Of a stretch of DNA of 64,000 nucleotides, positions 11,325-51,824 are shown in pieces. Position numbers and translations under genes: made by a program. Origin of the DNA: an uncultured Bacteroides sp. (GTDB lineage Bacteria; Bacteroidota; Bacteroidia; G022818785); assembly GCA_964620755.1 (NCBI GenBank), contig CAZUHH010000008.1:191172-255171 (forward strand), in the 5' to 3' direction. The number at the start of each line of letters is the position of its first letter. Positions within the stretch are counted from its first letter, which is position 1. Below the pieces are notes generated by a model. The model did not search any database, had not been told where the DNA came from, and worked only from the letters and a program-made list of their open reading frames with translations.

Positions 11325-11816
11325 ATGAAAAAACAATGTTATATTATACTTATTTATATTAAAAATGAGCTTGGAGTAATTAATAAGATATTAGGTATTT
11401 TTAATAGAAGAAGAATATTGATTTATAATATTTCTGTAGCACATTATAGCTCTAAAGCTATTTTTAGATTGGCTATCGAAGTTAATACCAATAAAGATAA
11501 AGTAGATACGATAACTAAATATATTAATAATGTCATAGAAGTTATTAAAGCAATTAATTGCCCTAAAGAAGATTTAATATGTAAATCTTCTATTTTATAT
11601 AGATTACCTATAAATAAGATTGATAATTATAATTCAATGATAAATAATTTATATAAAGACAGTAAAATACTATATATAGATAATCAATATTTAATTATTG
11701 AAAAATTGGTTGATAATAATGATATTGATAATATTTTAAATCAAAAAAATAAATTAAATGATATAGAATATCTAAAAATAGAATCTATAGGTTTAGTTAA
11801 AGATTTTTGTAATTGA
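11325..11816 (+). CDS. ilvN: Acetolactate synthase small (regulatory) subunit
   Basis: ACT-like N-terminus (ELGVINKILGIFNRRRI..NISV); sits between ilvB and ilvC. Confidence 0.7.
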   Translation: MKKQCYIILIYIKNELGVINKILGIFNRRRILIYNISVAHYSSKAIFRLAIEVNTNKDKVDTITKYINNVIEVIKAINCPKEDLICKSSILYRLPINKIDNYNSMINNLYKDSKILYIDNQYLIIEKLVDNNDIDNILNQKNKLNDIEYLKIESIGLVKDFCN

Positions 11817-11854
11817 ATATTAATATTTTGTTAACTTTTATAAAAAATATAATT

Positions 11855-12898
11855 ATGGCTAAAATAAATTTTGGAGGTGTTATTGAAGATGTTATAACTC
11901 ATAATGAGTATAGTATGAATCGTGCTGTAAATAATTTAAAAAATGAAGTAATTGCTGTTATAGGATATGGCATTCAAGGTCCTGGCCAAGCATTAAATTT
12001 AAAAGATAATGGATTTAATGTTATTGTAGGGCAAAGAAATAAATCAAAAAGTTGGGATAAAGCAAAAAATGATGGATGGATAGAAAATAAAGATTTATTT
12101 TCTATAGAAGATGCTTTACAAAAAGGTACTATAATTTTTTATTTATTATCTGATGCTGGTCAAATAGAATTATGGAATAAAGTTTATAAATATCTTAATA
12201 AAGATAAGACTTTATATTTTTCTCATGGTTTTGGCATTACATATAAAAAGTATACTGGAATTATTCCTCCTAAGAATGTAGATGTTATTTTAGTGGCTCC
12301 AAAAGGATCCGGCACTAGTTTACGTACTTTATTTTTGAATGGTGAAGGATTAAATGCAAGTTATGCAATATATCAAGATGCTTCTGGTCGTGCTTTAGAA
12401 AAAACACTTTCTCTTGGTATTGGAATAGGATCTTCATGTCTTTTTCCAACTACTTTTGAAAAAGAAGTTTATAGTGATTTGACAGGTGAAAGAGGAACAC
12501 TTTTAGGAGCTATTGCTGGTATATTTGAAGCTCAATATTCTGTTTTACGTAAAAATGGTCATAGCCCTAGTGAAGCTTATAATGAAACTGTAGAAGAATT
12601 TACTCAAAGTTTAATGCCTCTAATTGCTGCAAAAGGTATGAGTTGGATGTATGCTAATTGTTCTACTACAGCCCAAAGAGGTGCTTTCGATTGGAAAGAT
12701 CATTTTAAAAAAGCTACTGAACCTGTATTTAATAATATATATGAAAGTGTTAAAAGTGGTAAAGAAGCTCGTAATGTTATACTTGCTAATAGTAAACCTG
12801 ATTATCGTGAAAAATTGGATATAGAATTACATAATATGGAAAAATCTGAATTATGGCAAACAGGTATACAGTTGCGTAAATTGAGAATAAAATCATAA
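11855..12898 (+). CDS. ilvC: Ketol-acid reductoisomerase
   Basis: NADP-binding VIGYGIQGPGQALNLKDNG; start moved to ATG at 11855 (MAKINFGG), the track start 11813 is TTG overlapping ilvN. Confidence 0.9.
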   Translation: MAKINFGGVIEDVITHNEYSMNRAVNNLKNEVIAVIGYGIQGPGQALNLKDNGFNVIVGQRNKSKSWDKAKNDGWIENKDLFSIEDALQKGTIIFYLLSDAGQIELWNKVYKYLNKDKTLYFSHGFGITYKKYTGIIPPKNVDVILVAPKGSGTSLRTLFLNGEGLNASYAIYQDASGRALEKTLSLGIGIGSSCLFPTTFEKEVYSDLTGERGTLLGAIAGIFEAQYSVLRKNGHSPSEAYNETVEEFTQSLMPLIAAKGMSWMYANCSTTAQRGAFDWKDHFKKATEPVFNNIYESVKSGKEARNVILANSKPDYREKLDIELHNMEKSELWQTGIQLRKLRIKS

Positions 12899-12910
12899 AT
12901 TATACTGTGT

Positions 12911-12970
12911 AAAAGCATTTGTTTACATACTTATTTTTATCTAAAAATAAGTATATAAACAAATGCTTTT
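12911..12970 (+). terminator. Intrinsic terminator-like hairpin: 28-bp stem (27/28 paired), 4-nt loop, followed by TTTTTATT
   Basis: Left arm 12911..12938 aaaagcatttgtttacatacttattttt, loop 12939..12942 atct, right arm 12943..12970 aaaaataagtatataaacaaatgctttt; lies 13 bp after ilvC stop and 19 bp before next ATG. Confidence 0.6.
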
Positions 12971-12988
12971 TATTAGTAAAATGTTTTA

Positions 12989-14497
12989 ATGGTTAAAAAG
13001 TTACAATTAGTTAAAGGTTTTTATAACAATATAATTATTAATGACTTTAATAATGAAATTATATATTTAAAATATTCTCTTAATTTTTTTATTAAATTAA
13101 GCAATAATAAAAAATTGTTAATATTATTAAATACTGATTTATCTATAAATAATATTGAATATTTTAAATATATAATTTATCCTTTAATATCTACTAAAAT
13201 TATTAATAAGATATTTATTGTAAATAATAATTTAATCAAATCTTTCATTTGTAAAGAAAATATTTTTTTTTGCAATACAGTGTCACAGGTATGTGATATG
13301 ACAAAAATTAATTACGATAACAATAATGATATTTTATTGAAAGGTAATGATAAAAATATGATTAAAACTACTAATCATTTTTTTTGTATCAATAATAGCA
13401 ATACAATACTAAATATTAATTTAAATATTATAGAAAATAATTTACAAGTTTATAGAGATATTCTTAATAAGAAAACTAAAATTATGGCTATTGTAAAAGC
13501 ATATTCTTATGGATTTGGAGATATAATAGTCAATATATTACAATATTGCAACATTGATTATATAAGTGTTGCAAATACTTATGAAGGAGTTATTTTAAGA
13601 AAAAATGGCATTATATCCCCCATAATGATTATGAATTTTGATATTAATACATTTGACAGTCTTTTATATTATAATCTAGAACCTTCTATCTATAACTTTA
13701 AAACTTTAAAATTGTTAATATCATTCTTATTAAAAAAGAATATACATGATTTTAAAATACATATTAAATTTAATACTGGTATGAATAGATTAGGATTCGA
13801 TTATAAAGATATTATATTATTAGCAAATATTTTAAATAAATATTCAAATTTAATTATTATAAAATCAATATTTTCACATTTATCATCTAGTAAAAATATA
13901 TCATTTAAAATAATTACACAAAATCAAATTAAATTATTCAGTATAATAAAAAATAAAATGAAATTATACATAAAGTATAATATTTTATTTCATATTGCAA
14001 ATACTACAGCAATTATTAATTACCCCAATGCTCAATTTGATATGGTAAGATTAGGTATAGGATTATATGGTATAGATTATACAAAAAAATTAGATAAAAT
14101 TAAATTTTCAGCTTCTTTACAAACTATTATATCTCAAATTAGATATGTAAAAAAAAATCAAACAATTGGTTATAATTGCAAAGGTACTATAAAAAGAAAT
14201 TCTAAAATAGCTATTGTAAAAATAGGCTATGCAGATGGTTTAAAAACATATTATAATAATAATATAAATTATATGATAGTTAACAATATGAAAGCACCTG
14301 TAATAGGTAATATATGTATGGATATGACTATGTTGGATGTAACAAATATTAAATGTAAAGAACATGATATAGTAACAATATTTGATAATATTGATACACT
14401 TAATTATATAGCAAATATTTTAAATATTAGTCTTTATGAAATATTTACAAATATTTCATCAAGAGTAAATAGAATATATCATTATAGTTATAAATAA
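12989..14497 (+). CDS. alr: Alanine racemase with about 135-aa uncharacterised N-terminal extension
   Basis: PLP-lysine motif IMAIVKAYSYGFG at about aa 166-178 and C-terminal GNICMDMTMLDV; ORF is 502 aa versus about 365 aa for the catalytic domain. Confidence 0.8.
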   Translation: MVKKLQLVKGFYNNIIINDFNNEIIYLKYSLNFFIKLSNNKKLLILLNTDLSINNIEYFKYIIYPLISTKIINKIFIVNNNLIKSFICKENIFFCNTVSQVCDMTKINYDNNNDILLKGNDKNMIKTTNHFFCINNSNTILNINLNIIENNLQVYRDILNKKTKIMAIVKAYSYGFGDIIVNILQYCNIDYISVANTYEGVILRKNGIISPIMIMNFDINTFDSLLYYNLEPSIYNFKTLKLLISFLLKKNIHDFKIHIKFNTGMNRLGFDYKDIILLANILNKYSNLIIIKSIFSHLSSSKNISFKIITQNQIKLFSIIKNKMKLYIKYNILFHIANTTAIINYPNAQFDMVRLGIGLYGIDYTKKLDKIKFSASLQTIISQIRYVKKNQTIGYNCKGTIKRNSKIAIVKIGYADGLKTYYNNNINYMIVNNMKAPVIGNICMDMTMLDVTNIKCKEHDIVTIFDNIDTLNYIANILNISLYEIFTNISSRVNRIYHYSYK

Positions 14498-14506
14498 ATA
14501 TTTATA

Positions 14507-15811
14507 TTATAGAATAATTCTTTTTATTTTCCCTCCTAAAGAATTTATTTTAGTATCTATTGTTTCATAGCCTCTATCAATTTGTTCAATATTTTTAATT
14601 ATACTTTTGCCATTAGAAGACAGAGCTGCTATTAATAATGCTACTCCTGCTCTAATATCAGGTGAAGTCATTTCAATGCCATTTAAATTGTATTTTTTAT
14701 TTATACCTATAACAACTACTCTATGAGGATCACATAATATAATTTTACTACCCATATCTATCAATTTATCTATAAAAAAAAGTCTACTTTCAAACATTTT
14801 TTGATGTATTAATACAGTTCCTTTTGCCTGAATTGCTGTAACTATTATTATACTTATTAAATCAGGTGTTAATCCTGGCCATGGAGAATCATATATATTT
14901 AATATAGAACCATCTATAAAAGATGATATTTTATAGTGTTTATTGCCTAAAATTGTAATATTATTATTATCAATTTCAATAATAATACCTAATTTTCTAA
15001 AAATACTTAATATTATATGTAAGTCATCAATATAAGTATCTTTAATTGTAATTAAAGAATTAGTTACAGCTGCTAGTCCTATAAAACTTCCAATCTCAAT
15101 AATATCAGGTAATATGTAATGACAAGTTCCTGTTAAATAATCTACTCCTCTTATTGTTAAATAATTAGATTTAATACCATATATTTTAGCACCCATATTA
15201 CACAACATTTTACATAATTGTACTATATATGGTTCACAGGCAGCATTGTAAATAATTGTTTCTCCATAAGCTAATACAGCTGCCATTATAATATTAGCTG
15301 TACCTGTAACTGAAATTTCATCTAAAATAAGATAATTACCTATAAGTTTTTCAGAATTAATTTCAAATATATTTTTATAGAAATATATTTTTGCCCCTAA
15401 TTTTTCGAATCCTATTAAATGTATATCAATTTTTCTTCTACCTATTTTATCCCCTCCAGGATTAATGAGTCTTGTAAATTTATATCTTGTTAATAATGGA
15501 CCTGCAATCAATATTGAACCTCTAATCATAGATGAATATTTAATATACTCATCAGTATATAAATAATTTAAATTAATATTATCTGATTTAAAGGAATATG
15601 AATTTGAACTGATATTGTTAATTTTAACTCCTAAATTTTTCAAAATATTAATTAATATTTTGACATCTATAATATTTGGAATATTATGAATTAAAATTTC
15701 ATGATCGGTTAATAACGTAGCTGCTATAACTTGTAAAGCTTCATTTTTAGATCCTTGAGGTGTGATACAACCACTTAAAGTTTGCCCTCCAATAATTTCA
15801 AATCCTTTCAT
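14507..15811 (-). CDS. murA: UDP-N-acetylglucosamine 1-carboxyvinyltransferase
   Basis: N-terminal GGQTLSGCITPQGSKNEALQVIAA; distinguished from AroA (57247..58509) which has LPGSKSESNRTLI. Confidence 0.88.
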   Translation of the reverse strand: MKGFEIIGGQTLSGCITPQGSKNEALQVIAATLLTDHEILIHNIPNIIDVKILINILKNLGVKINNISSNSYSFKSDNINLNYLYTDEYIKYSSMIRGSILIAGPLLTRYKFTRLINPGGDKIGRRKIDIHLIGFEKLGAKIYFYKNIFEINSEKLIGNYLILDEISVTGTANIIMAAVLAYGETIIYNAACEPYIVQLCKMLCNMGAKIYGIKSNYLTIRGVDYLTGTCHYILPDIIEIGSFIGLAAVTNSLITIKDTYIDDLHIILSIFRKLGIIIEIDNNNITILGNKHYKISSFIDGSILNIYDSPWPGLTPDLISIIIVTAIQAKGTVLIHQKMFESRLFFIDKLIDMGSKIILCDPHRVVVIGINKKYNLNGIEMTSPDIRAGVALLIAALSSNGKSIIKNIEQIDRGYETIDTKINSLGGKIKRIIL

Positions 15812-17921: not shown

Positions 17922-19916
17922 ATGGGTAATAACAATAATCCTAAGTTAAAAATTTATAAACTATATAATAATATTCAACAGTATAGTTATAATTATTATG
18001 TTTTAGGGGAGTCAACTATTACAGATTATGAATTTGATAATATGATAAATGAATTATATGCATTAGAAACTAAATATCCTCAATATAAAATTGAAAATTC
18101 CCCAACAGATAAGATTTATAATAATGAAAAAAATATTGCGGTTAAACATATAAATCCTATGTTATCACTTTCTAATACGTATTCTGAAAAAGATTTATTA
18201 TTATTTGATCGTAGTATTAGAAAAAAAATTAGTTGGAAATATCAATATGTTTGTGAATTAAAATTAGATGGTATAGCATTATCAATTAGATATGTTAATG
18301 GTAAATTTTATCAAGCTATTACTAGAGGCAATGGATTATATGGAGAGGATATAACATATAATATTAAATATATGGCTGATATTCCTATGAAAATAGATAA
18401 TGTAAGTAATTTTGTAGAAATAAGAGGAGAAATTATTATTTTAAAGAGTGATTTTAATAAAATAAATGAGTATAGAAAAAATAAATCTTTATTACCTTTT
18501 TCTCATGGTAGAAGTTTTATAATAGGTGTAATTAAATTACAGCACTATAATCCTTTATATAAAAAAATATTAAAATACTATGCTTATGATATATATGTTG
18601 ACAATATAAAATTAAATAATCATTTTAATAATATATATATATTAAAAAGCTATAATTTAACTGTTTCAAATGATATAGAGATATGCAATAATATTAATAA
18701 AGTTATAAAATTTATTGCTAAATATAAAGATATAATTAATAAATTAAATTTTCATGTAGATGGTATAGTTATAAAAATTAATCAATATAAAATACAACAA
18801 TATCTAGGTAATACTTCTAAATATCCTAAATGGGCTATAGCATATAAATATCCTCCTAATGAAGTTGAAAGTATTGTTTTAAAGATTGTATATCAGGTTG
18901 GACGTACAGGTTTGATAACTCCAATAGCTAAAATAAAACCTATTAATATTTCAGATACTATTGTTAAAAGTATCAATTTACATAATTATTATGAAATATT
19001 AAGATTAGATATTAGAATCAATGATACTGTTTATATAAAAAAAAGCGGTGAAATAATACCTAAAATTACTGGTGTTAATTTAAATAAACGTTTATCTAAT
19101 GCTATAAAATTTATTTTTTCTATTAATTGTCCATCATGTAATAGTAAATTAATAATATCTAACAATAACAAATCACATTATTGTATTAATACAATATGTG
19201 ATAGTAAGATAATAAATAAAATTGTTCATTTTATTTCTAAAAATGCTATGAATATTGATAATCTTGGCATTAAAAATATTGAATTATTATATAAAAATAA
19301 GATAATTAACAACTATACTGATTTATATTCTTTAAAAAATAAAAAAAATTTAATAATGGCTATTAAGGGATTTAATCATACTATTATTAATAAAATATTA
19401 TACAGTATTGATAAATCTAGAAAACCTAAATTTCAAAATTTTTTGTTTGCACTTGGAATACCTTCTATAGGTATTGAAACATCTATTTTAATATCTAAAG
19501 AATTTAATAATATAAATGAATTAATAAATTATAATTTTAATAAATTACCTAAAATTATGAATATAGGACCTAAAATAGTTCATAATTTACATTTATTTTT
19601 CTCAGATAGGGAAAACAAGATATTGTTAAATAAATTATTAGTAGAAAATATAGAAATACAATATTATAAATCAATTAATAAAAGTAAAAAATTAAATAAT
19701 ATTCATTTTATTATTACTGGAACTTTTAAAAATTATAGTCGTAATGAATTAATAGATTTAATTCATATTAATGGAGGTATAATATGTAAAAATATGTCAT
19801 CTAAATTAAATTATGTTATTGCTGGTAATAATATGGGGCCATCAAAAAAATTAATGGCAGAAAAAATGAATATTAAGATAATATCTGTTAATGAACTATT
19901 AAAAATAATCAATTAA
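17922..19916 (+). CDS. ligA: NAD-dependent DNA ligase
   Basis: Adenylation lysine motif CELKLDG, zinc-finger cysteines (CPSCNSKL), 664 aa. Confidence 0.9.
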   Translation: MGNNNNPKLKIYKLYNNIQQYSYNYYVLGESTITDYEFDNMINELYALETKYPQYKIENSPTDKIYNNEKNIAVKHINPMLSLSNTYSEKDLLLFDRSIRKKISWKYQYVCELKLDGIALSIRYVNGKFYQAITRGNGLYGEDITYNIKYMADIPMKIDNVSNFVEIRGEIIILKSDFNKINEYRKNKSLLPFSHGRSFIIGVIKLQHYNPLYKKILKYYAYDIYVDNIKLNNHFNNIYILKSYNLTVSNDIEICNNINKVIKFIAKYKDIINKLNFHVDGIVIKINQYKIQQYLGNTSKYPKWAIAYKYPPNEVESIVLKIVYQVGRTGLITPIAKIKPINISDTIVKSINLHNYYEILRLDIRINDTVYIKKSGEIIPKITGVNLNKRLSNAIKFIFSINCPSCNSKLIISNNNKSHYCINTICDSKIINKIVHFISKNAMNIDNLGIKNIELLYKNKIINNYTDLYSLKNKKNLIMAIKGFNHTIINKILYSIDKSRKPKFQNFLFALGIPSIGIETSILISKEFNNINELINYNFNKLPKIMNIGPKIVHNLHLFFSDRENKILLNKLLVENIEIQYYKSINKSKKLNNIHFIITGTFKNYSRNELIDLIHINGGIICKNMSSKLNYVIAGNNMGPSKKLMAEKMNIKIISVNELLKIIN

Positions 19917-19919
19917 ATT

Positions 19920-20474
19920 ATGGGTATAATACATAATTTAAGAAATAAAATAGGATATATGCTACTAAATAGTACAATTAACAATTGTAAATATAAACAT
20001 TATTCTATTCCTTTTAAAAATGCAAACAATATAGGTGTTTTATATAATGTCAATAATAGTATTGATTTGTTAGAAATGAATTTATTAATAGAACTATTAT
20101 GTAAGTATAACAAAAACATTTATTTACTATATTATTCTAATAATAAGCAAAAATATATTAAAAATTATAATTATGAGTTTTTATATGTAAATTATTTTAA
20201 TAAAAAAAATATTAATTACATTTTTCATCCTAAATGTAATGTTGTACAATCATTTATTAAAACAGAATTTGATATATTAATTGCTATTTGTTTTTATGCT
20301 TTTTTGCCAATAGATTACATATCAGGATTATCAAAAGCTAAATTTAGAATAGGTTTATATAACAAAATTAATATTAATTATCTTGATTTAATATTTGATT
20401 TAAAAAATGATGATAATATAAATTCTTTTATAATTAATTTAAAAAGATATTTTAATTTAAAAGAAAAAATATGA
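19920..20474 (+). CDS. Hypothetical protein, 184 aa, no recognisable motif
   Basis: ATG 4 bp after ligA stop; stop overlaps dapA start (ATGA), which suggests co-transcription; composition N/I/K/Y-rich. Confidence 0.5.
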   Translation: MGIIHNLRNKIGYMLLNSTINNCKYKHYSIPFKNANNIGVLYNVNNSIDLLEMNLLIELLCKYNKNIYLLYYSNNKQKYIKNYNYEFLYVNYFNKKNINYIFHPKCNVVQSFIKTEFDILIAICFYAFLPIDYISGLSKAKFRIGLYNKININYLDLIFDLKNDDNINSFIINLKRYFNLKEKI

Positions 20475-21522: not shown

Positions 21523-21659
21523 TTCACATTAAAATAAAATAATCAAAACCCATAGAATAATTATGGATTAATTAAAAATAGATATAAAATATATCATTTA
21601 TTTCTTATATTATAAATATTTTTTTTTGAAAAAAAAATATTTTATATAAAAATATATAC

Positions 21660-22065
21660 ATTAATTGAATTTGTCGCTTTAAAAATAATATTTTAAAGAG
21701 GAAAGTCCGGACAACATAGAGCAATTTGCTTCTTAACGAGAAGGTATTATTAATAATAACAGATAGTGTCACAGAAAATAACCGCCTTTAAAATAAGGTA
21801 AGGGTGAAAATGTAAAGGTAAGAATTTACAATATTATATAGTGATATATAATATGGATAAACCTCAAATGTTGAAAGATTAAATAGTTTCATATTCATTT
21901 TTATCATGAATACAAGTAGCTCAGCTTGTTTTATTATTCATCAAACATTGATAGATAATAAAGTGAAATAGGTGAATCGATTGATTAATTAAGTAATTAA
22001 TTAACTAGATAAATGACAAATATATTCTTTTGAATATACAGAATCCGGCTTATTATATTATATGT
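21660..22065 (+). ncRNA. rnpB: RNase P RNA (bacterial type A); ends approximate (+/- 20 nt)
   Basis: Conserved blocks in order: GGAAAGTCCGGAC (21700..), ACAGAAAATAACCGCC, AATAAGGTAAGGGTGAAAATGTAAAGGTAAGAA, AGCTCAGCTTG, ACAGAATCCGGCTTAT (22038..22053). Confidence 0.78.
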
Positions 22066-23009
22066 ATATAATTTTTATATAAATCTATAATTTTAGATGC
22101 TAAAACATTGCCTATTTTTTTATATGACTCTGCAGTTAATCCAGCAATATGAGAACTTAAAATAATTTTATCAGATTTAATTAATTGTTTATAAAAATTA
22201 CTGTTGTATAATTCTGGAAATTTTTCTATTTCTAATACATCTAAAGCTGCACCAATAATAATACCATTTTTAATAGCTTTTATTAAATCACTTGTTTTGA
22301 CAATATTGCCTCTAGAAGTATTAATAAAATAAATCTTCTTTTTAAAAGAATTAAAATAATCAATATCAATCATATGCTTTGTTTCTGTATTTAAAGGAAT
22401 ATTAATACTAACAATATCTGATTGTTCAAATAAATCTTTTTCAGTTACTAATTTAACACTTTTATATTTTGTAGAAATTTTATATTTATCATATGCAATT
22501 ATATTCATATTAAAAGATGACATTTTATTTGCTAATGAAGATCCATTATGTCCTAAACCGACAATACCTAATGTTTTATTTTCCAATTCTATAGATTGAT
22601 TACTTATTCTATCCCATATACCATTTTTAATTTCATTATTTGACTTAACAATATTCTTTGTTAAACTTAATATCATACCTATTATATGTTCTGCAACTGC
22701 ATTTTTATTTCCTTCTGGTGCATTTATAATTTTAATATTATATTTCATTGCAGTATTTATATCAATATGATCTAATCCTGATCCAGCTCTGGCAATGAAT
22801 TTTAAATTATTACTTTTGGTAATTATTTTATCATCTATTATAAATGAATTACTTCTTAATACTAGACCATCATAATTATCAATTATTTTTAGAATGTTAT
22901 TATAAGATATATTTTTTTTAATATCTGTTTTAATATTAAAATTATTAATTTTTTTTATAAAAATAGAATGTATATCATTAATAATTAATATTTTATTTAA
23001 TATTTTCAT
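22053..23009 (-). CDS. serA: D-isomer-specific 2-hydroxyacid dehydrogenase, probably D-3-phosphoglycerate dehydrogenase (short form)
   Basis: NAD-binding LGIVGLGHNGSS, catalytic-domain blocks NTSRGNIV and SSHIAGLT; start placed at ATG 23009 (track start 23024 is TTG). Confidence 0.65.
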   Translation of the reverse strand: MKILNKILIINDIHSIFIKKINNFNIKTDIKKNISYNNILKIIDNYDGLVLRSNSFIIDDKIITKSNNLKFIARAGSGLDHIDINTAMKYNIKIINAPEGNKNAVAEHIIGMILSLTKNIVKSNNEIKNGIWDRISNQSIELENKTLGIVGLGHNGSSLANKMSSFNMNIIAYDKYKISTKYKSVKLVTEKDLFEQSDIVSINIPLNTETKHMIDIDYFNSFKKKIYFINTSRGNIVKTSDLIKAIKNGIIIGAALDVLEIEKFPELYNSNFYKQLIKSDKIILSSHIAGLTAESYKKIGNVLASKIIDLYKNYIHII

Positions 23010-47476: not shown

Positions 47477-47561
47477 GCGGATGTGGCGAAATAAGGTATA
47501 CGCATTAGATTTAGGATCTAACGCTTTTAATAGCATAAGGGTTCGAGTCCCTTCATCCGCA
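47477..47561 (+). tRNA. tRNA-Leu (anticodon UAG), type II with long variable arm
   Basis: Acceptor stem GCGGATG/CATCCGC, D-loop with GG, anticodon stem TTAGA/TCTAA, loop TTTAGGA (anticodon TAG, G37), T-arm AAGGG-TTCGAGT-CCCTT, discriminator A; CCA not encoded. Confidence 0.85.
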
Positions 47562-50004: not shown

Positions 50005-50751
50005 TTATTCTTTGTCTAAATAAATATTTATTGGAGTGCCAAATAATACTTTATCATTTATGGGCTTAAATGATGATTTTTGTTTATATATAATTGCATT
50101 ATTTTTATCATTTACTTTTTTAGTATAAGTAATTAATCCTATAGTTAAATTTTTATCTATTATTATTTTAATAGCTTCTGCTAAAGTTAATCCCTTTAAA
50201 TTAGGAATTTCTACTGTATTATTTCCTAAACCATTGCCAAAATATAAATCTATAGTGTTTTTTATATAAATAGGTTTGTTAAAATTAATAATACTATTTT
50301 CGTGTTTTGCATATAGTAATATATCTTTTTGATTGGATTGTATATATACAATTTTCCTTATATTAATATTATATTGAGATAATATGTTAATAACATCTCT
50401 TTTTGTCATATTGCATAATTCGGGTATTATAACATATAATGGTTTAGGAGCAGTTACATTGACATATATTTGTCTTTTATTTTTAATATCACTATATGGT
50501 AATGGATATTGATTAATAATAATGTTTTCAGGTTTATTATCAACAAATGTATATCCTATTTTTAATTTTATATTGTCTTTTATTGATTTATCAACATTAA
50601 ATATATTAATTCCGATTAAATTAGGTGTCTTTATAAAATTATTATATCTAGTATAATAATATAAAAATGACGAAATTTGCATGTATGTAATTAAAAATAA
50701 AAAAATAATTGCTATTGTATATTTTATAATATTGAAAATATATTTAATCAT
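50005..50751 (-). CDS. PASTA domain-containing membrane protein
   Basis: N-terminal TM helix followed by repeated PASTA-like modules (e.g. IEIPNLKGLTLAEAIKIIIDKNLTIG); divergent from ddl. Confidence 0.65.
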   Translation of the reverse strand: MIKYIFNIIKYTIAIIFLFLITYMQISSFLYYYTRYNNFIKTPNLIGINIFNVDKSIKDNIKLKIGYTFVDNKPENIIINQYPLPYSDIKNKRQIYVNVTAPKPLYVIIPELCNMTKRDVINILSQYNINIRKIVYIQSNQKDILLYAKHENSIINFNKPIYIKNTIDLYFGNGLGNNTVEIPNLKGLTLAEAIKIIIDKNLTIGLITYTKKVNDKNNAIIYKQKSSFKPINDKVLFGTPINIYLDKE

Positions 50752-50819: not shown

Positions 50820-51824
50820 ATGAAATATAAAATAGCTCTTGTTGTAGGAGGTTATACTAAAGAATATAATATATCTATTCAAGATATAGATTATATAATA
50901 TCTAATTTTGATAAAAATTTATATGAAGTTTATGTAATTTTTATTGAAAAAAATTATTGGTATTATATTAATAGGTTAGATAATACAAAAATTATAGTTA
51001 ATAAAAATGATTTTTCATTAAATATTAATAATATTATTATCAAATTTGATTTGGCATTTATAAATATGCATGGATCACCAGGAGAAGATGGAAAATTAAA
51101 AGGTTATTTTGATATGATTAATATACCTTATACGAGTTCTAATTATATTACATCTGCAATTTGTATGAATAAAAGAATATCAAAACTTTTAATAAAAAAA
51201 TCTACAATATTAAATATTAATGTACCTAAATTTATTTATGTCAATAATTTAAATAGAATGATAAATATAGATTATATTAGTAATTATATTAAATTTCCAT
51301 TTTTTGTTAAAGCTAATAATTTAGGTTCTAGTATTGGAGTATTTAAGGTATATAATCTTAATCAATATATATTGTCATTGAATGCTATTTTTCAAGAAGA
51401 TAATGAAATGATAATAGAAGAATATATAAAAGGTAAAGAATTTAGTATAAGTGTTTTTAAATATAAAAATGATGTAATTGTATTGCCTATTACAGAAATT
51501 ATTCATAATAGTGATTTTTTTGATTATGAAGCAAAATATAATGATTTTTCAAATAAAAACATTATTTTATCAAATATTAATGGACATAATTTTAATAATA
51601 TTATTAAAGTATCTAAAGATATATATAATTTCTTTAATTGTAGTGGTATTATACGTTTGGACTTTATTAAGGAAATAGCTACTAATAAATGGTTTTTTTT
51701 AGAAATTAATATAATACCTGCTATAAATAGAAATAGCATTTCATCAATACATATTAGAAATAGCACATATAGTATGCAAGATTTTTATAATATTTTAATA
51801 AATGAAGCATTAAATAAAATATGA
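50820..51824 (+). CDS. ddl: D-alanine--D-alanine ligase
   Basis: N-terminal IALVVGGYTKEYNISI and ATP-grasp blocks (FFVKANNLGSSIGV, IIRLDFI); 334 aa. Confidence 0.85.
   Translation: MKYKIALVVGGYTKEYNISIQDIDYIISNFDKNLYEVYVIFIEKNYWYYINRLDNTKIIVNKNDFSLNINNIIIKFDLAFINMHGSPGEDGKLKGYFDMINIPYTSSNYITSAICMNKRISKLLIKKSTILNINVPKFIYVNNLNRMINIDYISNYIKFPFFVKANNLGSSIGVFKVYNLNQYILSLNAIFQEDNEMIIEEYIKGKEFSISVFKYKNDVIVLPITEIIHNSDFFDYEAKYNDFSNKNIILSNINGHNFNNIIKVSKDIYNFFNCSGIIRLDFIKEIATNKWFFLEINIIPAINRNSISSIHIRNSTYSMQDFYNILINEALNKI

What the first reader, a model, noticed from the sequence alone, without database searches (positions are those of the whole stretch)
12989..13393. Alanine racemase ORF carries an unexplained ~135-aa N-terminal extension
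The Alr catalytic domain (PLP-lysine motif IMAIVKAYSYGFG, C-terminal GNICMDMTMLDV) needs about 365 aa, but the ORF is 502 aa and opens right after the ilvC terminator hairpin. The first ~135 aa are N/I/K-rich with no motif I recognise. In many Bacteroidota Alr is the C-terminal half of a MurF-Alr fusion, so this could be a decayed remnant of that fusion, a lineage-specific domain, or untranslated sequence if the real start is an internal Met (in-frame ATG at 13358 or 13484).
Basis: partly seen in the sequence, partly recalled or inferred. Interest (0 to 1): 0.5.

Follow-up and report, generated by a model that had tools for sequence, protein, structure and literature searches.

The report
Leftover MurF domain on alanine racemase
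The extra 135 amino acids at the front of this symbiont's alanine racemase are the worn-down last domain of a cell-wall ligase (MurF) that is fused to the racemase in free-living relatives; this is an ordinary case of gene erosion, though the same leftover domain has been kept several times independently.

Summary
ORF 12989..14497 (+) encodes 502 aa. The Alr domains cover aa 143-497, and aa 1-135 have no Pfam hit.

The extension is explained. It is homologous to domain 3 (the C-terminal domain) of MurF, as found in the ~820-aa MurF-Alr fusion of Bacteroidota:
- NCBIfam NF008897 aligns aa 4-499 to model positions 321-821.
- The extension alone scores E=1.8e-6 against that model.
- It scores 33 bits against a profile built only from free-living fusions; the best of 1000 shuffles scores 10 bits.

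MurF domains 1-2 are gone, with no remnant in the window.

The frame is kept open (chance about 2e-7). A syntenic relative with a 490-kb genome has the same truncation and no alternative start codon before the PLP-lysine region. The extension is therefore very probably translated.

The polar residues that are invariant in the fusions are lost, while the hydrophobic core is kept. The extension cannot be a ligase. It is most likely a structural vestige attached to a working Alr; ddl and murA are also in the window.

At least six other ~500-aa short forms exist in unrelated Bacteroidota, each nearest to a different long form. Loss of domains 1-2 with retention of domain 3 is therefore recurrent.

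Modest interest: a new variant of a known fusion.

The parts
12911..12970 (+). Long AT-rich hairpin in the ilvC-alr spacer. It is a likely transcription terminator or RNA-processing structure and ends 19 nt before the alr ATG.
   Evidence: -31.7 kcal/mol, z = -8.4, and 0 of 200 shuffles fold as well; the consensus terminator scan does not call it, because it has fewer than 3 G-C pairs.
12989..12991 (+). ATG start codon of the short-form alr. It lies two codons upstream of the position of the Met in the 'PVEMRLQLK' linker between MurF domains 2 and 3, which is invariant in all 92 aligned long forms.
   Evidence: The syntenic relative P0002 starts at the same alignment column.
12989..13393 (+). 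Vestigial MurF (Mur ligase) C-terminal domain, aa 1-135. The alternating strand-helix fold pattern is retained, but the conserved polar residues are lost.
   Evidence: - NF008897 model positions 321-466, E=1.8e-6 for the extension alone.
- 33.1 bits against an HMM built from free-living fusions only, against a maximum of 10.4 bits for 1000 shuffles.
- The family profile hits E. coli MurF 1gg4 residues 324-448, E=7.7e-9.
- AF2 pLDDT is about 80-90, and the best Foldseek hits are Mur ligase C-terminal domains.
- 12 of 26 columns conserved in the fusions are kept, against 92 of 111 in the Alr part.
13394..13414 (+). Junction between the two parts, aa 136-142. It corresponds to 'KVHETVLEINL' of the long forms, and the canonical Alr N-terminus begins here.
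   Evidence: (TIGR00492 starts at aa 140).
13415..14074 (+). Alanine racemase N-terminal PLP-binding barrel, aa 143-362. The PLP lysine K170 is at codon 13496-13498.
   Evidence: PF01168, E=5e-41. K170, Y174, R267 and other family-invariant residues are kept.
14114..14479 (+). Alanine racemase C-terminal beta domain, aa 376-497, including Y395 and the C443-M444-D445 motif.
   Evidence: PF00842, E=2.9e-32. Invariant columns are listed. The whole-protein model matches solved Alr structures with TMt 0.83-0.90.
13358..13360 (+). In-frame ATG at codon 124. It is the only plausible alternative start, giving an Alr with a 13-19-aa leader.
   Evidence: There is no equivalent start codon in the relative P0002.
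11813..12898 (+). ilvC, the upstream neighbour. It occupies the place where MurF domains 1-2 would lie in a full-length fusion gene.
   Evidence: TIGR00465, 311 bits. L001 has the same ilvD-ilvB-ilvN-ilvC-alr order.
14507..15811 (-). murA, the convergent downstream neighbour. It catalyses the first committed step of peptidoglycan precursor synthesis.
   Evidence: TIGR01072, 424 bits, above the cut-off of 392.7.
50820..51824 (+). ddl (D-Ala-D-Ala ligase), the consumer of the racemase product. Its presence shows that the D-alanine branch is retained.
   Evidence: PF07478 and PF01820. NF002527, 243 bits, E=3.4e-72, which is below that model's curated cut-off of 310.

Best explanation
The gene descends from the ~820-aa murF-alr fusion gene that is standard in free-living Bacteroidota, including Flavobacterium.

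How it arose:
- In an ancestor shared with the 490-kb symbiont genome CP063811.1, the 5' ~960 bp were deleted. These encoded MurF domain 1 (UDP-MurNAc-tripeptide binding) and domain 2 (the ATP-binding P-loop).
- Translation now starts at the linker between MurF domains 2 and 3.

What is made: MurF domain 3 (aa 1-135) joined to a complete alanine racemase (aa ~137-502).

What each part does:
- The racemase part is intact. It supplies D-Ala to Ddl, which is encoded in the same window.
- The domain-3 remnant cannot ligate anything. It has no nucleotide- or UDP-sugar-binding domains and has lost the polar residues that are invariant in the fusions.
- It is nevertheless translated and held under weak purifying selection. 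The most likely reason is that it folds as a unit packed against the racemase, so its removal or disruption would harm Alr folding, stability or expression.

Shown: the homology, the position of the truncation, the open frame, the relaxed but non-zero conservation, and the recurrence in other lineages.

Inferred: translation from 12989, the non-catalytic structural role, and the presence of a separate canonical murF elsewhere in the genome.
For: Homology of the extension:
- NF008897 aligns aa 4-499 to model positions 321-821. The extension alone gives E=1.8e-6.
- ~820-aa fusions align over 99% of the query at about 40% identity.
- An HMM built from 92 free-living C-domains scores the extension at 33.1 bits and that of P0002 at 27.5 bits. 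The best of 1000 composition-matched shuffles scores 10.4 bits.
- The family profile hits MurF structures 1gg4 (residues 324-448), 3zm5, 2am1 and 4cvk.
- The N-terminal half of the fusions is MurF: 1gg4 residues 24-447, E=4.6e-31.
- The AF2 model of the extension has the Mur ligase C-terminal fold.

Truncation at the domain boundary, with nothing left upstream:
- Alignment A1 places the start at the domain 2/3 linker.
- tblastn with the N-terminal halves of the fusions finds nothing in the window with E below 1.

Translation of the extension:
- An open frame of this length has a chance of about 2e-7.
- P0002 shares the synteny and the start column, and has no other start codon before codon 167.
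- The window and P0002 extensions are 34% identical, z = 11 against shuffles.

Relaxed constraint and loss of function-related residues:
- 12 of 26 conserved columns are kept in the extension, against 92 of 111 in the Alr part.
- The linker Arg, Y20, D23, Q37, S48, G79, R121 and E126 are lost. L7, I17, L27, L31, I115, L116, D19, K118 and G119 are kept.

The racemase is functional and needed:
- TIGR00492 scores 242.8 bits against a cut-off of 168.
- ddl and murA are in the window.

Recurrence:
- Six further ~500-aa short forms exist. Each one's Alr part is nearest to a different long form at 50-66% identity, but only 36-47% identical to the other short forms.
- Two were checked on their contigs. 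Both have unrelated upstream genes and no MurF remnant.
- The full-length AF2 model has pTM 0.88, which implies a fixed arrangement of the domains.
Against: - There is no direct evidence of translation or of protein stability.
- G+C in the extension is flat across codon positions (0.156/0.141/0.133). This looks more like unconstrained sequence than like the Alr part (0.233/0.228/0.094).
- In-frame ATGs at codons 104 and 124 could give a shorter product in this genome.
- Pfam PF02875 does not detect the extension, and single-sequence tblastn does not either. Only profiles do.
- The AF2 models rest on alignments dominated by long forms. They show what the family folds into, not that this degraded sequence still folds.
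- The structural-dependence idea is an inference from recurrence and was not tested.
- Whether a separate murF exists in this genome could not be checked, because only 64 kb of about 294 kb is available.
Confidence: 0.8

Rival explanations
1. The start is mis-called. Translation begins at ATG 13358 (codon 124), and bases 12989-13357 are an untranslated, decaying pseudogene remnant of murF.
For: - G+C is flat across codon positions in the extension.
- In-frame ATGs occur at codons 104 and 124.
- The conserved polar residues are lost.
- The canonical Alr begins near aa 137-140.
Against: - There are no stops in 135 codons where about 0.108 stops per codon are expected (P about 2e-7). The other frames carry 4-32 stops.
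- The relative P0002 keeps the same open extension and has no ATG/GTG/TTG between codons 6 and 167. There the extension must be translated for Alr to be complete.
- Profile homology survives well above shuffles in both genomes.
- Independent short forms in other lineages begin at the same boundary, directly after unrelated upstream genes.
Confidence: 0.07
2. The retained domain 3 has a function of its own. It could bind D-Ala-D-Ala or D-Ala to regulate the racemase, or dock Alr onto MurF, Ddl or other cell-wall enzymes. On this view it is selected for that role rather than as a passive scaffold.
For: - Retention of exactly this domain is recurrent and independent in at least six lineages, including a genome of about 294 kb under extreme reduction.
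- In Mur ligases, domain 3 is the module that binds the incoming amino acid or dipeptide (established knowledge; the match to MurF structures is).
- The AF2 model gives a confident fixed orientation relative to Alr, pTM 0.88.
Against: - The residues that are 100% conserved in the long forms are the ones lost. Y20 and R121 are gone in all 8 short forms, and S48 and E126 in 7 of 8.
- The extensions of different short forms are only 10-25% identical to each other, which argues against a shared binding site.
- The conservation that remains is mostly in the hydrophobic core.
Confidence: 0.12
3. MurF is split. Domains 1-2 are encoded elsewhere in the genome and reassemble in trans with the domain 3-Alr protein to give an active MurF.
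For: ddl is retained, so some MurF activity is presumably needed. Only 64 kb of the genome could be examined.
Against: - No sequence resembling MurF domains 1-2 occurs in the window, within +/-10 kb in L001, or on the contigs L082 and L083.
- The linker Arg and the KGAR arginine, both invariant in the fusions, are replaced.
- The same losses in all short forms point to a relaxed ligase constraint.
Confidence: 0.03
4. The extension is a lineage-specific new domain or low-complexity filler unrelated to MurF. The profile match would then be a composition artefact.
For: The sequence is rich in N, I and K. There is no Pfam hit, no single-sequence BLAST hit, and the word-indexed search with the extension alone returned nothing.
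Against: - Composition-matched shuffles reach at most 10.4 bits, against 33.1 bits observed.
- The alignment is collinear over the whole domain, with the same secondary-structure order.
- Less degraded short forms bridge the gap, scoring 43-87 bits against the same HMM.
Confidence: 0.01

Closest known systems
[quoted passage not shown]
   Same: The whole 502-aa protein is collinear with model positions 321-821, that is MurF domain 3 plus Alr. It is about 40% identical to many members.
   Different: - It lacks positions 1-320, which hold MurF domain 1 and the ATP-binding central domain with the GITGSNGKT P-loop.
- It scores 447.8 bits against a curated cut-off of 804.
- 14 of the 26 conserved residues of domain 3 are replaced.
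C-terminal domain (domain 3) of MurF, Pfam PF02875 Mur_ligase_C; for example E. coli MurF, PDB 1gg4, residues ~318-452
   Same: - The order of strands and helices is the same.
- The family profile aligns to 1gg4 residues 324-448.
- The top Foldseek hits of the model are Mur ligase C-terminal domains: 3mvn, 4cvk, MurC and MurE.
- D19 corresponds to the conserved Asp of the DDSYNAN motif.
   Different: - It stands without domains 1-2.
- PF02875 itself gives no hit.
- 'DSYN' has become 'D-FN' and 'KGAR/KGSR' has become 'KGND'.
- The linker Arg is a Lys.
Stand-alone alanine racemase (TIGR00492; for example PDB 4y2w, 4lus, 1sft)
   Same: - aa ~140-497 match the model from end to end, at 242.8 bits against a cut-off of 168.
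- The PLP lysine, the catalytic Tyr and the CMD motif are present.
- The model superposes on solved Alr structures at TMt 0.83-0.90.
   Different: It carries a 135-aa N-terminal domain that stand-alone enzymes do not have.
Other short-form Alr proteins of Bacteroidota MAGs, annotated simply as 'alanine racemase' (P0002 = UOF94270.1, P0187 = HAN78838.1, and P0188, P0231, P0242, P0252, P0256)
   Same: - They have the same architecture: a degraded MurF domain 3 plus Alr, 496-508 aa.
- They begin at or within 7 residues of the same linker Met.
- They show the same loss of Y20 and R121.
   Different: - Apart from P0002, they arose separately. Their nearest relatives are different long forms, and the two whose contigs were checked (P0188, P0256) have different upstream genes.
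- The two checked contigs have 31% and 41% G+C.
- Most of their extensions are less degraded, at 23-87 bits against 33 bits here.
Mur-ligase-fold proteins kept for non-catalytic roles, for example the MurE-like subunit of the plastid RNA polymerase complex
   Same: A Mur ligase fold is retained after its ligase role is lost. Chains 8qma_O, 8w9z_N and 8ras_Q appear among the Foldseek hits. That they are non-catalytic is my own knowledge and was not tested here.
   Different: There is no evidence for a new partner or role here. Only one domain is retained.

Membership tests
Alanine racemase (TIGR00492; Pfam PF01168 + PF00842) | Full-length match above the curated cut-off to the alr equivalog model and to both Pfam domains | tested here: met
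   TIGR00492 scores 242.8 bits against a cut-off of 168, covering aa 140-497. PF01168 gives E=5e-41 and PF00842 gives E=2.9e-32.
Alanine racemase (TIGR00492; Pfam PF01168 + PF00842) | PLP-binding lysine, second catalytic base (Tyr), and conserved Arg and CMD motif residues | tested here: met
   K170, Y174, R267, H335, R354, Y395 and C443-M444-D445 fall in columns that are invariant across 94 sequences. 92 of 111 highly conserved Alr columns are kept.
Alanine racemase (TIGR00492; Pfam PF01168 + PF00842) | Homodimeric enzyme with racemase activity | not testable with these tools
   This needs expression and an enzyme assay. The model superposes on solved Alr monomers.
Bifunctional MurF/Alr (NCBIfam NF008897) | Score above the curated cut-off over the whole 822-position model | tested here: not met
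   The score is 447.8 bits against a cut-off of 804. Only model positions 321-821 are covered.
Bifunctional MurF/Alr (NCBIfam NF008897) | MurF domains 1-2 with the ATP-binding P-loop (GITGSNGKT) and the central-domain motifs | tested here: not met
   They are absent from the ORF. No remnant is found anywhere in the window by tblastn.
Bifunctional MurF/Alr (NCBIfam NF008897) | MurF domain 3 directly joined to the Alr N-terminus | tested here: met
   The alignment is collinear through the junction. The extension scores 33.1 bits against the free-living domain-3 HMM.
MurF / Mur ligase family | Three-domain architecture with the nucleotide-binding central domain (PF08245) | tested here: not met
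   The ORF has no PF08245 or PF01225 hit. The homologous long forms carry PF08245.
MurF / Mur ligase family | Residues of the linker and domain 3 that are invariant in Mur ligases: the Arg of the GR/MR linker and the Asp of the DDSYNAN-type motif | tested here: inconclusive
   The Asp is kept (D19). The Arg is replaced by Lys (K4). The adjacent Y20, S48, R121 and E126, which are invariant in the fusions, are replaced. That these positions correspond to the classic Mur ligase invariants rests on the alignment with 1gg4 and on published Mur ligase alignments recalled from memory.
MurF / Mur ligase family | Mur ligase C-terminal fold (Rossmann-like beta-alpha domain) | tested here: met
   The extension-only AF2 model has pLDDT 84.8. 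The best Foldseek PDB hits are 3mvn (Mpl C-terminal domain, E=1e-4, TMq 0.64), 4cvk (MurF), MurC, MurE and FPGS. Caveat: the model is driven by an alignment made mostly of long forms.

The most novel reading that the evidence does not exclude
MurF domain 3 is an autonomous module that the racemase needs, for example as a D-Ala-D-Ala or D-Ala sensor, or as a docking site that ties Alr to the cell-wall precursor machinery. A further possibility is that the fully conserved Met at the domain 2/3 linker of the long-form genes is a natural internal start. In that case ordinary Bacteroidota would already make a short 'domain 3-Alr' isoform, and the repeated truncations would merely fix it.
Probability: 0.15. 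Interest if true: 0.55.

Novelty: new variant of a known kind. Interest (0 to 1): 0.3.

Why it matters
- For annotation: these ~500-aa proteins are labelled plain 'alanine racemase'. Their extra domain is invisible to Pfam, so they look anomalous. They should be described as truncated MurF-Alr fusions.
- For biology: no paper on the Bacteroidota MurF-Alr fusion was found in the searched library. Its MurF half can evidently be lost repeatedly while alr is kept, and ddl as well in this window. This suggests that the half is a dispensable paralogue of a separate MurF.
- The last MurF domain survives every time, even in a genome of about 294 kb. That points to structural or functional coupling between this domain and the racemase, which could be tested with simple deletion constructs.
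- It is a small, clean example of how multidomain proteins erode in reduced genomes. It does not change any major picture.

Tried and rejected
- Pfam on the extension alone gave nothing, only a zf-P11 hit at E=0.28.
- Single-sequence tblastn with free-living C-domains against the window did not recover 12989-13393 even at E below 10. The homology is visible only to profiles.
- The word-indexed protein search with a two-sequence alignment of the extensions returned no hit at all, not even the query proteins. That was one wasted search, probably because of low-complexity filtering.
- The exact-sequence contig look-up for P0001 failed, and the genome-contig scan did not return the source genome. 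The organism is therefore not named, and the rest of its ~294-kb genome could not be checked for murF.
- The sigma-70 promoter scan is uninformative at 20% G+C: 17 sites found against 12 expected.
- Foldseek with the whole-protein model returned only racemases. A separate model of the extension was needed.
- Literature searches for the MurF-Alr fusion and for the accessions CP063811 and GCA_022818785 found nothing relevant.
- ~529-543-aa hits (P0081, P0171, P0177, P0202), P0063 (520 aa) and P0211 (503 aa) were considered as further short forms. I rejected them as probable contig-edge fragments of long forms. P0081 is a near-identical fragment of the 811-aa P0071; the others keep intact motifs, most lie on very short contigs, and P0202's cluster includes an 829-aa member.
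- dN/dS between the window and L001 was not attempted, because at 53% and 34% amino-acid identity the synonymous sites are saturated.
- A search of the +/-6-kb flanks of 80 free-living loci for a second, canonical murF found none. This says nothing about the rest of those genomes.
Full report
**1. The observation**

The window has about 20% G+C throughout. ORF 12989..14497 (+) encodes 502 aa. An in-frame TAA at 12977-12979 makes ATG 12989 the first possible start.

Pfam finds Ala_racemase_N at aa 143-362 and Ala_racemase_C at aa 376-497, and nothing credible in aa 1-142. The alr equivalog TIGR00492 begins at aa 140 and scores 242.8 bits against a cut-off of 168. The quoted motifs and the in-frame ATGs at 13358 and 13484 are present, together with a further ATG at 13298.

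The 90-nt spacer after ilvC folds into a very stable hairpin. The main stem is 12911-12970, at -31.7 kcal/mol and z = -8.4.

**2. What the extension is**

NCBIfam NF008897 is the 822-position model of the Bacteroidota bifunctional MurF/alanine racemase. It aligns aa 4-499 of the ORF to model positions 321-821. The extension alone (aa 1-145) hits positions 321-466 of that model with E=1.8e-6, and hits no other model.

In a search of 5.8 billion proteins, the best homologues other than the protein itself and one relative are ~810-830-aa fusions. They are about 40% identical over 99% of the query. The genome scan and the exhaustive representative search give the same picture.

The N-terminal half of such a fusion is a genuine MurF: E. 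coli MurF 1gg4 residues 24-447 match with E=4.6e-31. It carries an intact P-loop, GITGSNGKT. In the alignment the window ORF begins at the linker 'PVEMRLQLKEG'. This linker opens MurF domain 3, the Mur ligase C-terminal domain.

To exclude a composition artefact, I built an HMM from the domain-3 columns of 92 free-living fusions only.
- The window extension scores 33.1 bits.
- The extension of its relative P0002 scores 27.5 bits.
- The best of 1000 composition-matched shuffles scores 10.4 bits.

A profile of this domain hits MurF crystal structures at their C-terminal domains: 1gg4 residues 324-448 with E=7.7e-9, and also 3zm5, 2am1 and 4cvk.

AlphaFold2 gives the whole protein pLDDT 89.5 and pTM 0.88. 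The extension has pLDDT of about 67-87 by 10-residue block (mostly 80 or above) and an alternating strand-helix pattern. A model of the extension alone (pLDDT 84.8) finds Mur ligase C-terminal domains as its best PDB matches: 3mvn, 4cvk, MurC, MurE and FPGS. These models lean on alignments dominated by long forms. They confirm the family's fold rather than prove that this degraded copy still folds.

The homology is invisible to Pfam PF02875 and to single-sequence tblastn.

**3. What was lost**

MurF domains 1 and 2, about 320 aa, are absent. tblastn with eleven N-terminal halves of fusions finds nothing in the 64-kb window with E below 1. ilvC and its hairpin now sit where that coding sequence would be.

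**4. Is the extension translated and constrained?**

The extension is 14% G+C. At that composition a codon is a stop with probability 0.108, so 135 open codons have a chance of about 2e-7. None of 200,000 shuffles stayed open, and the other five frames carry 4-32 stops.

The closest relative is P0002 (505 aa, UOF94270.1), on the 490-kb record CP063811.1.
- It has the same ilvD-ilvB-ilvN-ilvC-alr-murA-rplS order and begins at the same alignment column.
- Its gene has no ATG, GTG or TTG between codons 6 and 167. There the extension must be translated if the racemase is to include its PLP-lysine region.
- The two extensions are 34% identical (Alr parts 53%). Their global alignment score is 11 standard deviations above shuffles.

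The constraint is nevertheless clearly relaxed.
- Identity to free-living fusions is 20-27% in the extension against 44-48% in the Alr part. Free-living pairs show 48% against 59%.
- Of 26 columns that are at least 90% conserved among the fusions, the window keeps 12. In the Alr part it keeps 92 of 111.
- The losses are the polar invariants: the linker Met-Arg, Y20, D23, Q37, S48, G79, R121 and E126.
- The survivors are mostly core hydrophobic residues (L7, I17, L27, L31, L47, I115, L116), plus N13, D19, T97, K118 and G119.
- G+C is flat across codon positions in the extension.

In this genome a second product starting at ATG 13358 (codon 124) cannot be excluded. A start at 13484 would leave only four residues before K170 and is not viable.

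**5. Context**

The window also encodes murA, convergent with alr and immediately downstream. It encodes ddl at 50820..51824, as well as lgt and lspA. The D-alanine branch and the first step of peptidoglycan precursor synthesis are thus retained, which fits a working racemase.

No Mur ligase gene lies in the window. The rest of the ~294-kb genome, whose size is known from the exact-match contig, could not be reached.

**6. The same truncation elsewhere**

The exhaustive search returned further ~500-aa proteins: P0187, P0188, P0231, P0242, P0252 and P0256.
- Their sequences begin at the same linker. Four of the eight short forms begin exactly at the Met that is 100% conserved in the long forms. 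The others begin within seven residues upstream of it.
- Their domain-3 motifs are degraded.
- Two were inspected on their contigs. P0256 (L082, 41% G+C) starts 7 nt after an unrelated gene. P0188 (L083, 31% G+C) follows the end of a P-type-ATPase-like gene. Neither upstream region resembles MurF.
- The Alr part of each short form is closest to a different long form. P0188 is 65% identical to ~815-aa long forms (813-817 aa), one of them named to a 'Flavob…' taxon (name cut off in the listing). P0187 and P0242 are about 55% identical to P0285. P0256 is 56% identical to P0225. The short forms are only 36-47% identical to one another.
- Apart from the window/P0002 pair, which I count as one event on the basis of shared synteny, these are therefore independent truncations.
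- All eight short forms have lost Y20 and R121, and seven of eight have lost S48 and E126. They keep 81-99 of 111 conserved Alr columns.

Other 503-543-aa hits look like contig-edge fragments of long forms and were set aside. Free-living Flavobacterium species carry the 814-aa long form, so the short form is the derived state.

**7. Most likely mechanism**

A 5' deletion removed MurF domains 1-2. Initiation moved to the domain 2/3 linker, where a conserved Met codon offers a ready start. The product is a functional racemase carrying a catalytically dead MurF domain 3.

The ligase-related residues became free to drift. The fold is retained, most plausibly because domain 3 is packed against Alr and an unfolded or partly deleted N-terminus would harm the enzyme. 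This last step is an inference from three observations:
- retention of exactly this domain in independent lineages;
- the pattern of core conservation;
- the confident relative placement of the domains in the model (pTM 0.88).

Repeated loss of the MurF half alongside a retained alr, and in this window also ddl, further suggests that the fusion's MurF half is a dispensable paralogue of a separate MurF. This was not tested.

**8. Rivals**

- An internal start with an untranslated remnant is unlikely, at about 0.07. The open frame, the absence of any alternative start in P0002 and the retained homology all argue against it.
- An autonomous ligand-binding or docking role for domain 3, at about 0.12, is not excluded. 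It is weakened by the loss of the most conserved polar residues in every short form and by the low similarity among the short-form extensions.
- A split MurF (about 0.03) and an unrelated new domain (about 0.01) have essentially no support.

**9. Comparison with what is known, and novelty**

The protein works like, and is a member of, the alanine racemase family; every feature that could be tested here is met.

It descends from the NF008897 fusion family but fails that family's defining features: the full-length score, and domains 1-2 with the P-loop. It should not be filed as bifunctional. It is not a MurF.

No paper describing the fusion or its truncated derivatives was found in the searchable library. 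Databases call the short forms simply 'alanine racemase'. I rate it a new variant of a known kind.

**10. Verdict**

Interest is modest (0.3). It is an annotation clarification and a tidy case of domain erosion. The one open question of some interest is why MurF domain 3 is always kept.

Noticed in passing
window 12903-12978: A very stable, almost purely A/T hairpin lies between ilvC and alr. It has a main stem of 27 pairs interrupted by one unpaired base on each side (15 + 12), free energy -31.7 kcal/mol and z = -8.4. The consensus terminator scan cannot see it because the stem has too few G-C pairs. The syntenic spacer in L001 (9934-10000) also contains a palindrome, ATATTATGATCTATA/TATAGATCATAATAT.
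   Followed up: partly
long-form fusions, alignment A3 columns 369-370 (equivalent to window aa 3-4): The Met-Arg of the MurF domain 2/3 linker ('PVEMRLQLK') is 100% conserved in 92 fusions, whereas canonical MurF has Gly-Arg at this position. Four independent short forms start exactly at this Met. It might be a natural internal start codon in the long-form genes.
   Followed up: partly
L001 15011-17046, compared with window 17922..19916: In the 490-kb relative, ligA is called as two overlapping ORFs of 173 aa and 506 aa. In the window it is one intact 664-aa gene. This could be a frameshift, a pseudogene or a sequencing error in the relative.
   Followed up: no
window 11325..11816: The small subunit of acetolactate synthase (ilvN) scores below both curated cut-offs: NF008864 at 58.7 bits against 119, and TIGR00119 at 50.7 against 56.9. 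Its partners ilvB, ilvC and ilvD score well. The regulatory subunit is strongly degraded.
   Followed up: no
window 50005..50751 (-), next to ddl at 50820..51824: A 248-aa protein has PASTA repeats but no kinase or transpeptidase domain. It matches only the PASTA part of PknB-type kinases, and it is transcribed divergently from ddl.
   Followed up: no
window 11813..12898: The ilvC ORF as listed starts at a TTG that overlaps the ilvN stop. The ilvC model aligns only from residue 42. The ATG at codon 15 (MAKINFGG, about 11855) is a more likely start.
   Followed up: no
window 12989-13393 compared with 13415-14494: G+C by codon position is flat in the extension (0.156/0.141/0.133). The Alr part shows the usual gradient (0.233/0.228/0.094), and ilvD, ilvB and ilvC reach 0.39-0.41 at the first position. 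The extension is close to the compositional floor of this genome.
   Followed up: yes
window 19920..20474: A 184-aa ORF between ligA and dapA has no NCBIfam hit. The gene at the same place in L001 (17030-17572) carries DUF6913.
   Followed up: no
window 21658-22069 and 47477-47561: An RNase P RNA (class A, 161 bits) and a single tRNA are the only Rfam matches in the 64 kb.
   Followed up: no
window, whole: The gene order sdhCAB, two M16 peptidases, ilvDBNC, alr, murA, rplS, dnaX, aroQ, ligA, dapA is shared with the 490-kb genome CP063811.1, which is labelled 'MAG: Bacteroides sp.'. Together with about 20% G+C and a source contig of about 294 kb, this points to a strongly reduced Bacteroidota endosymbiont. 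Its name could not be established with these tools.
   Followed up: partly
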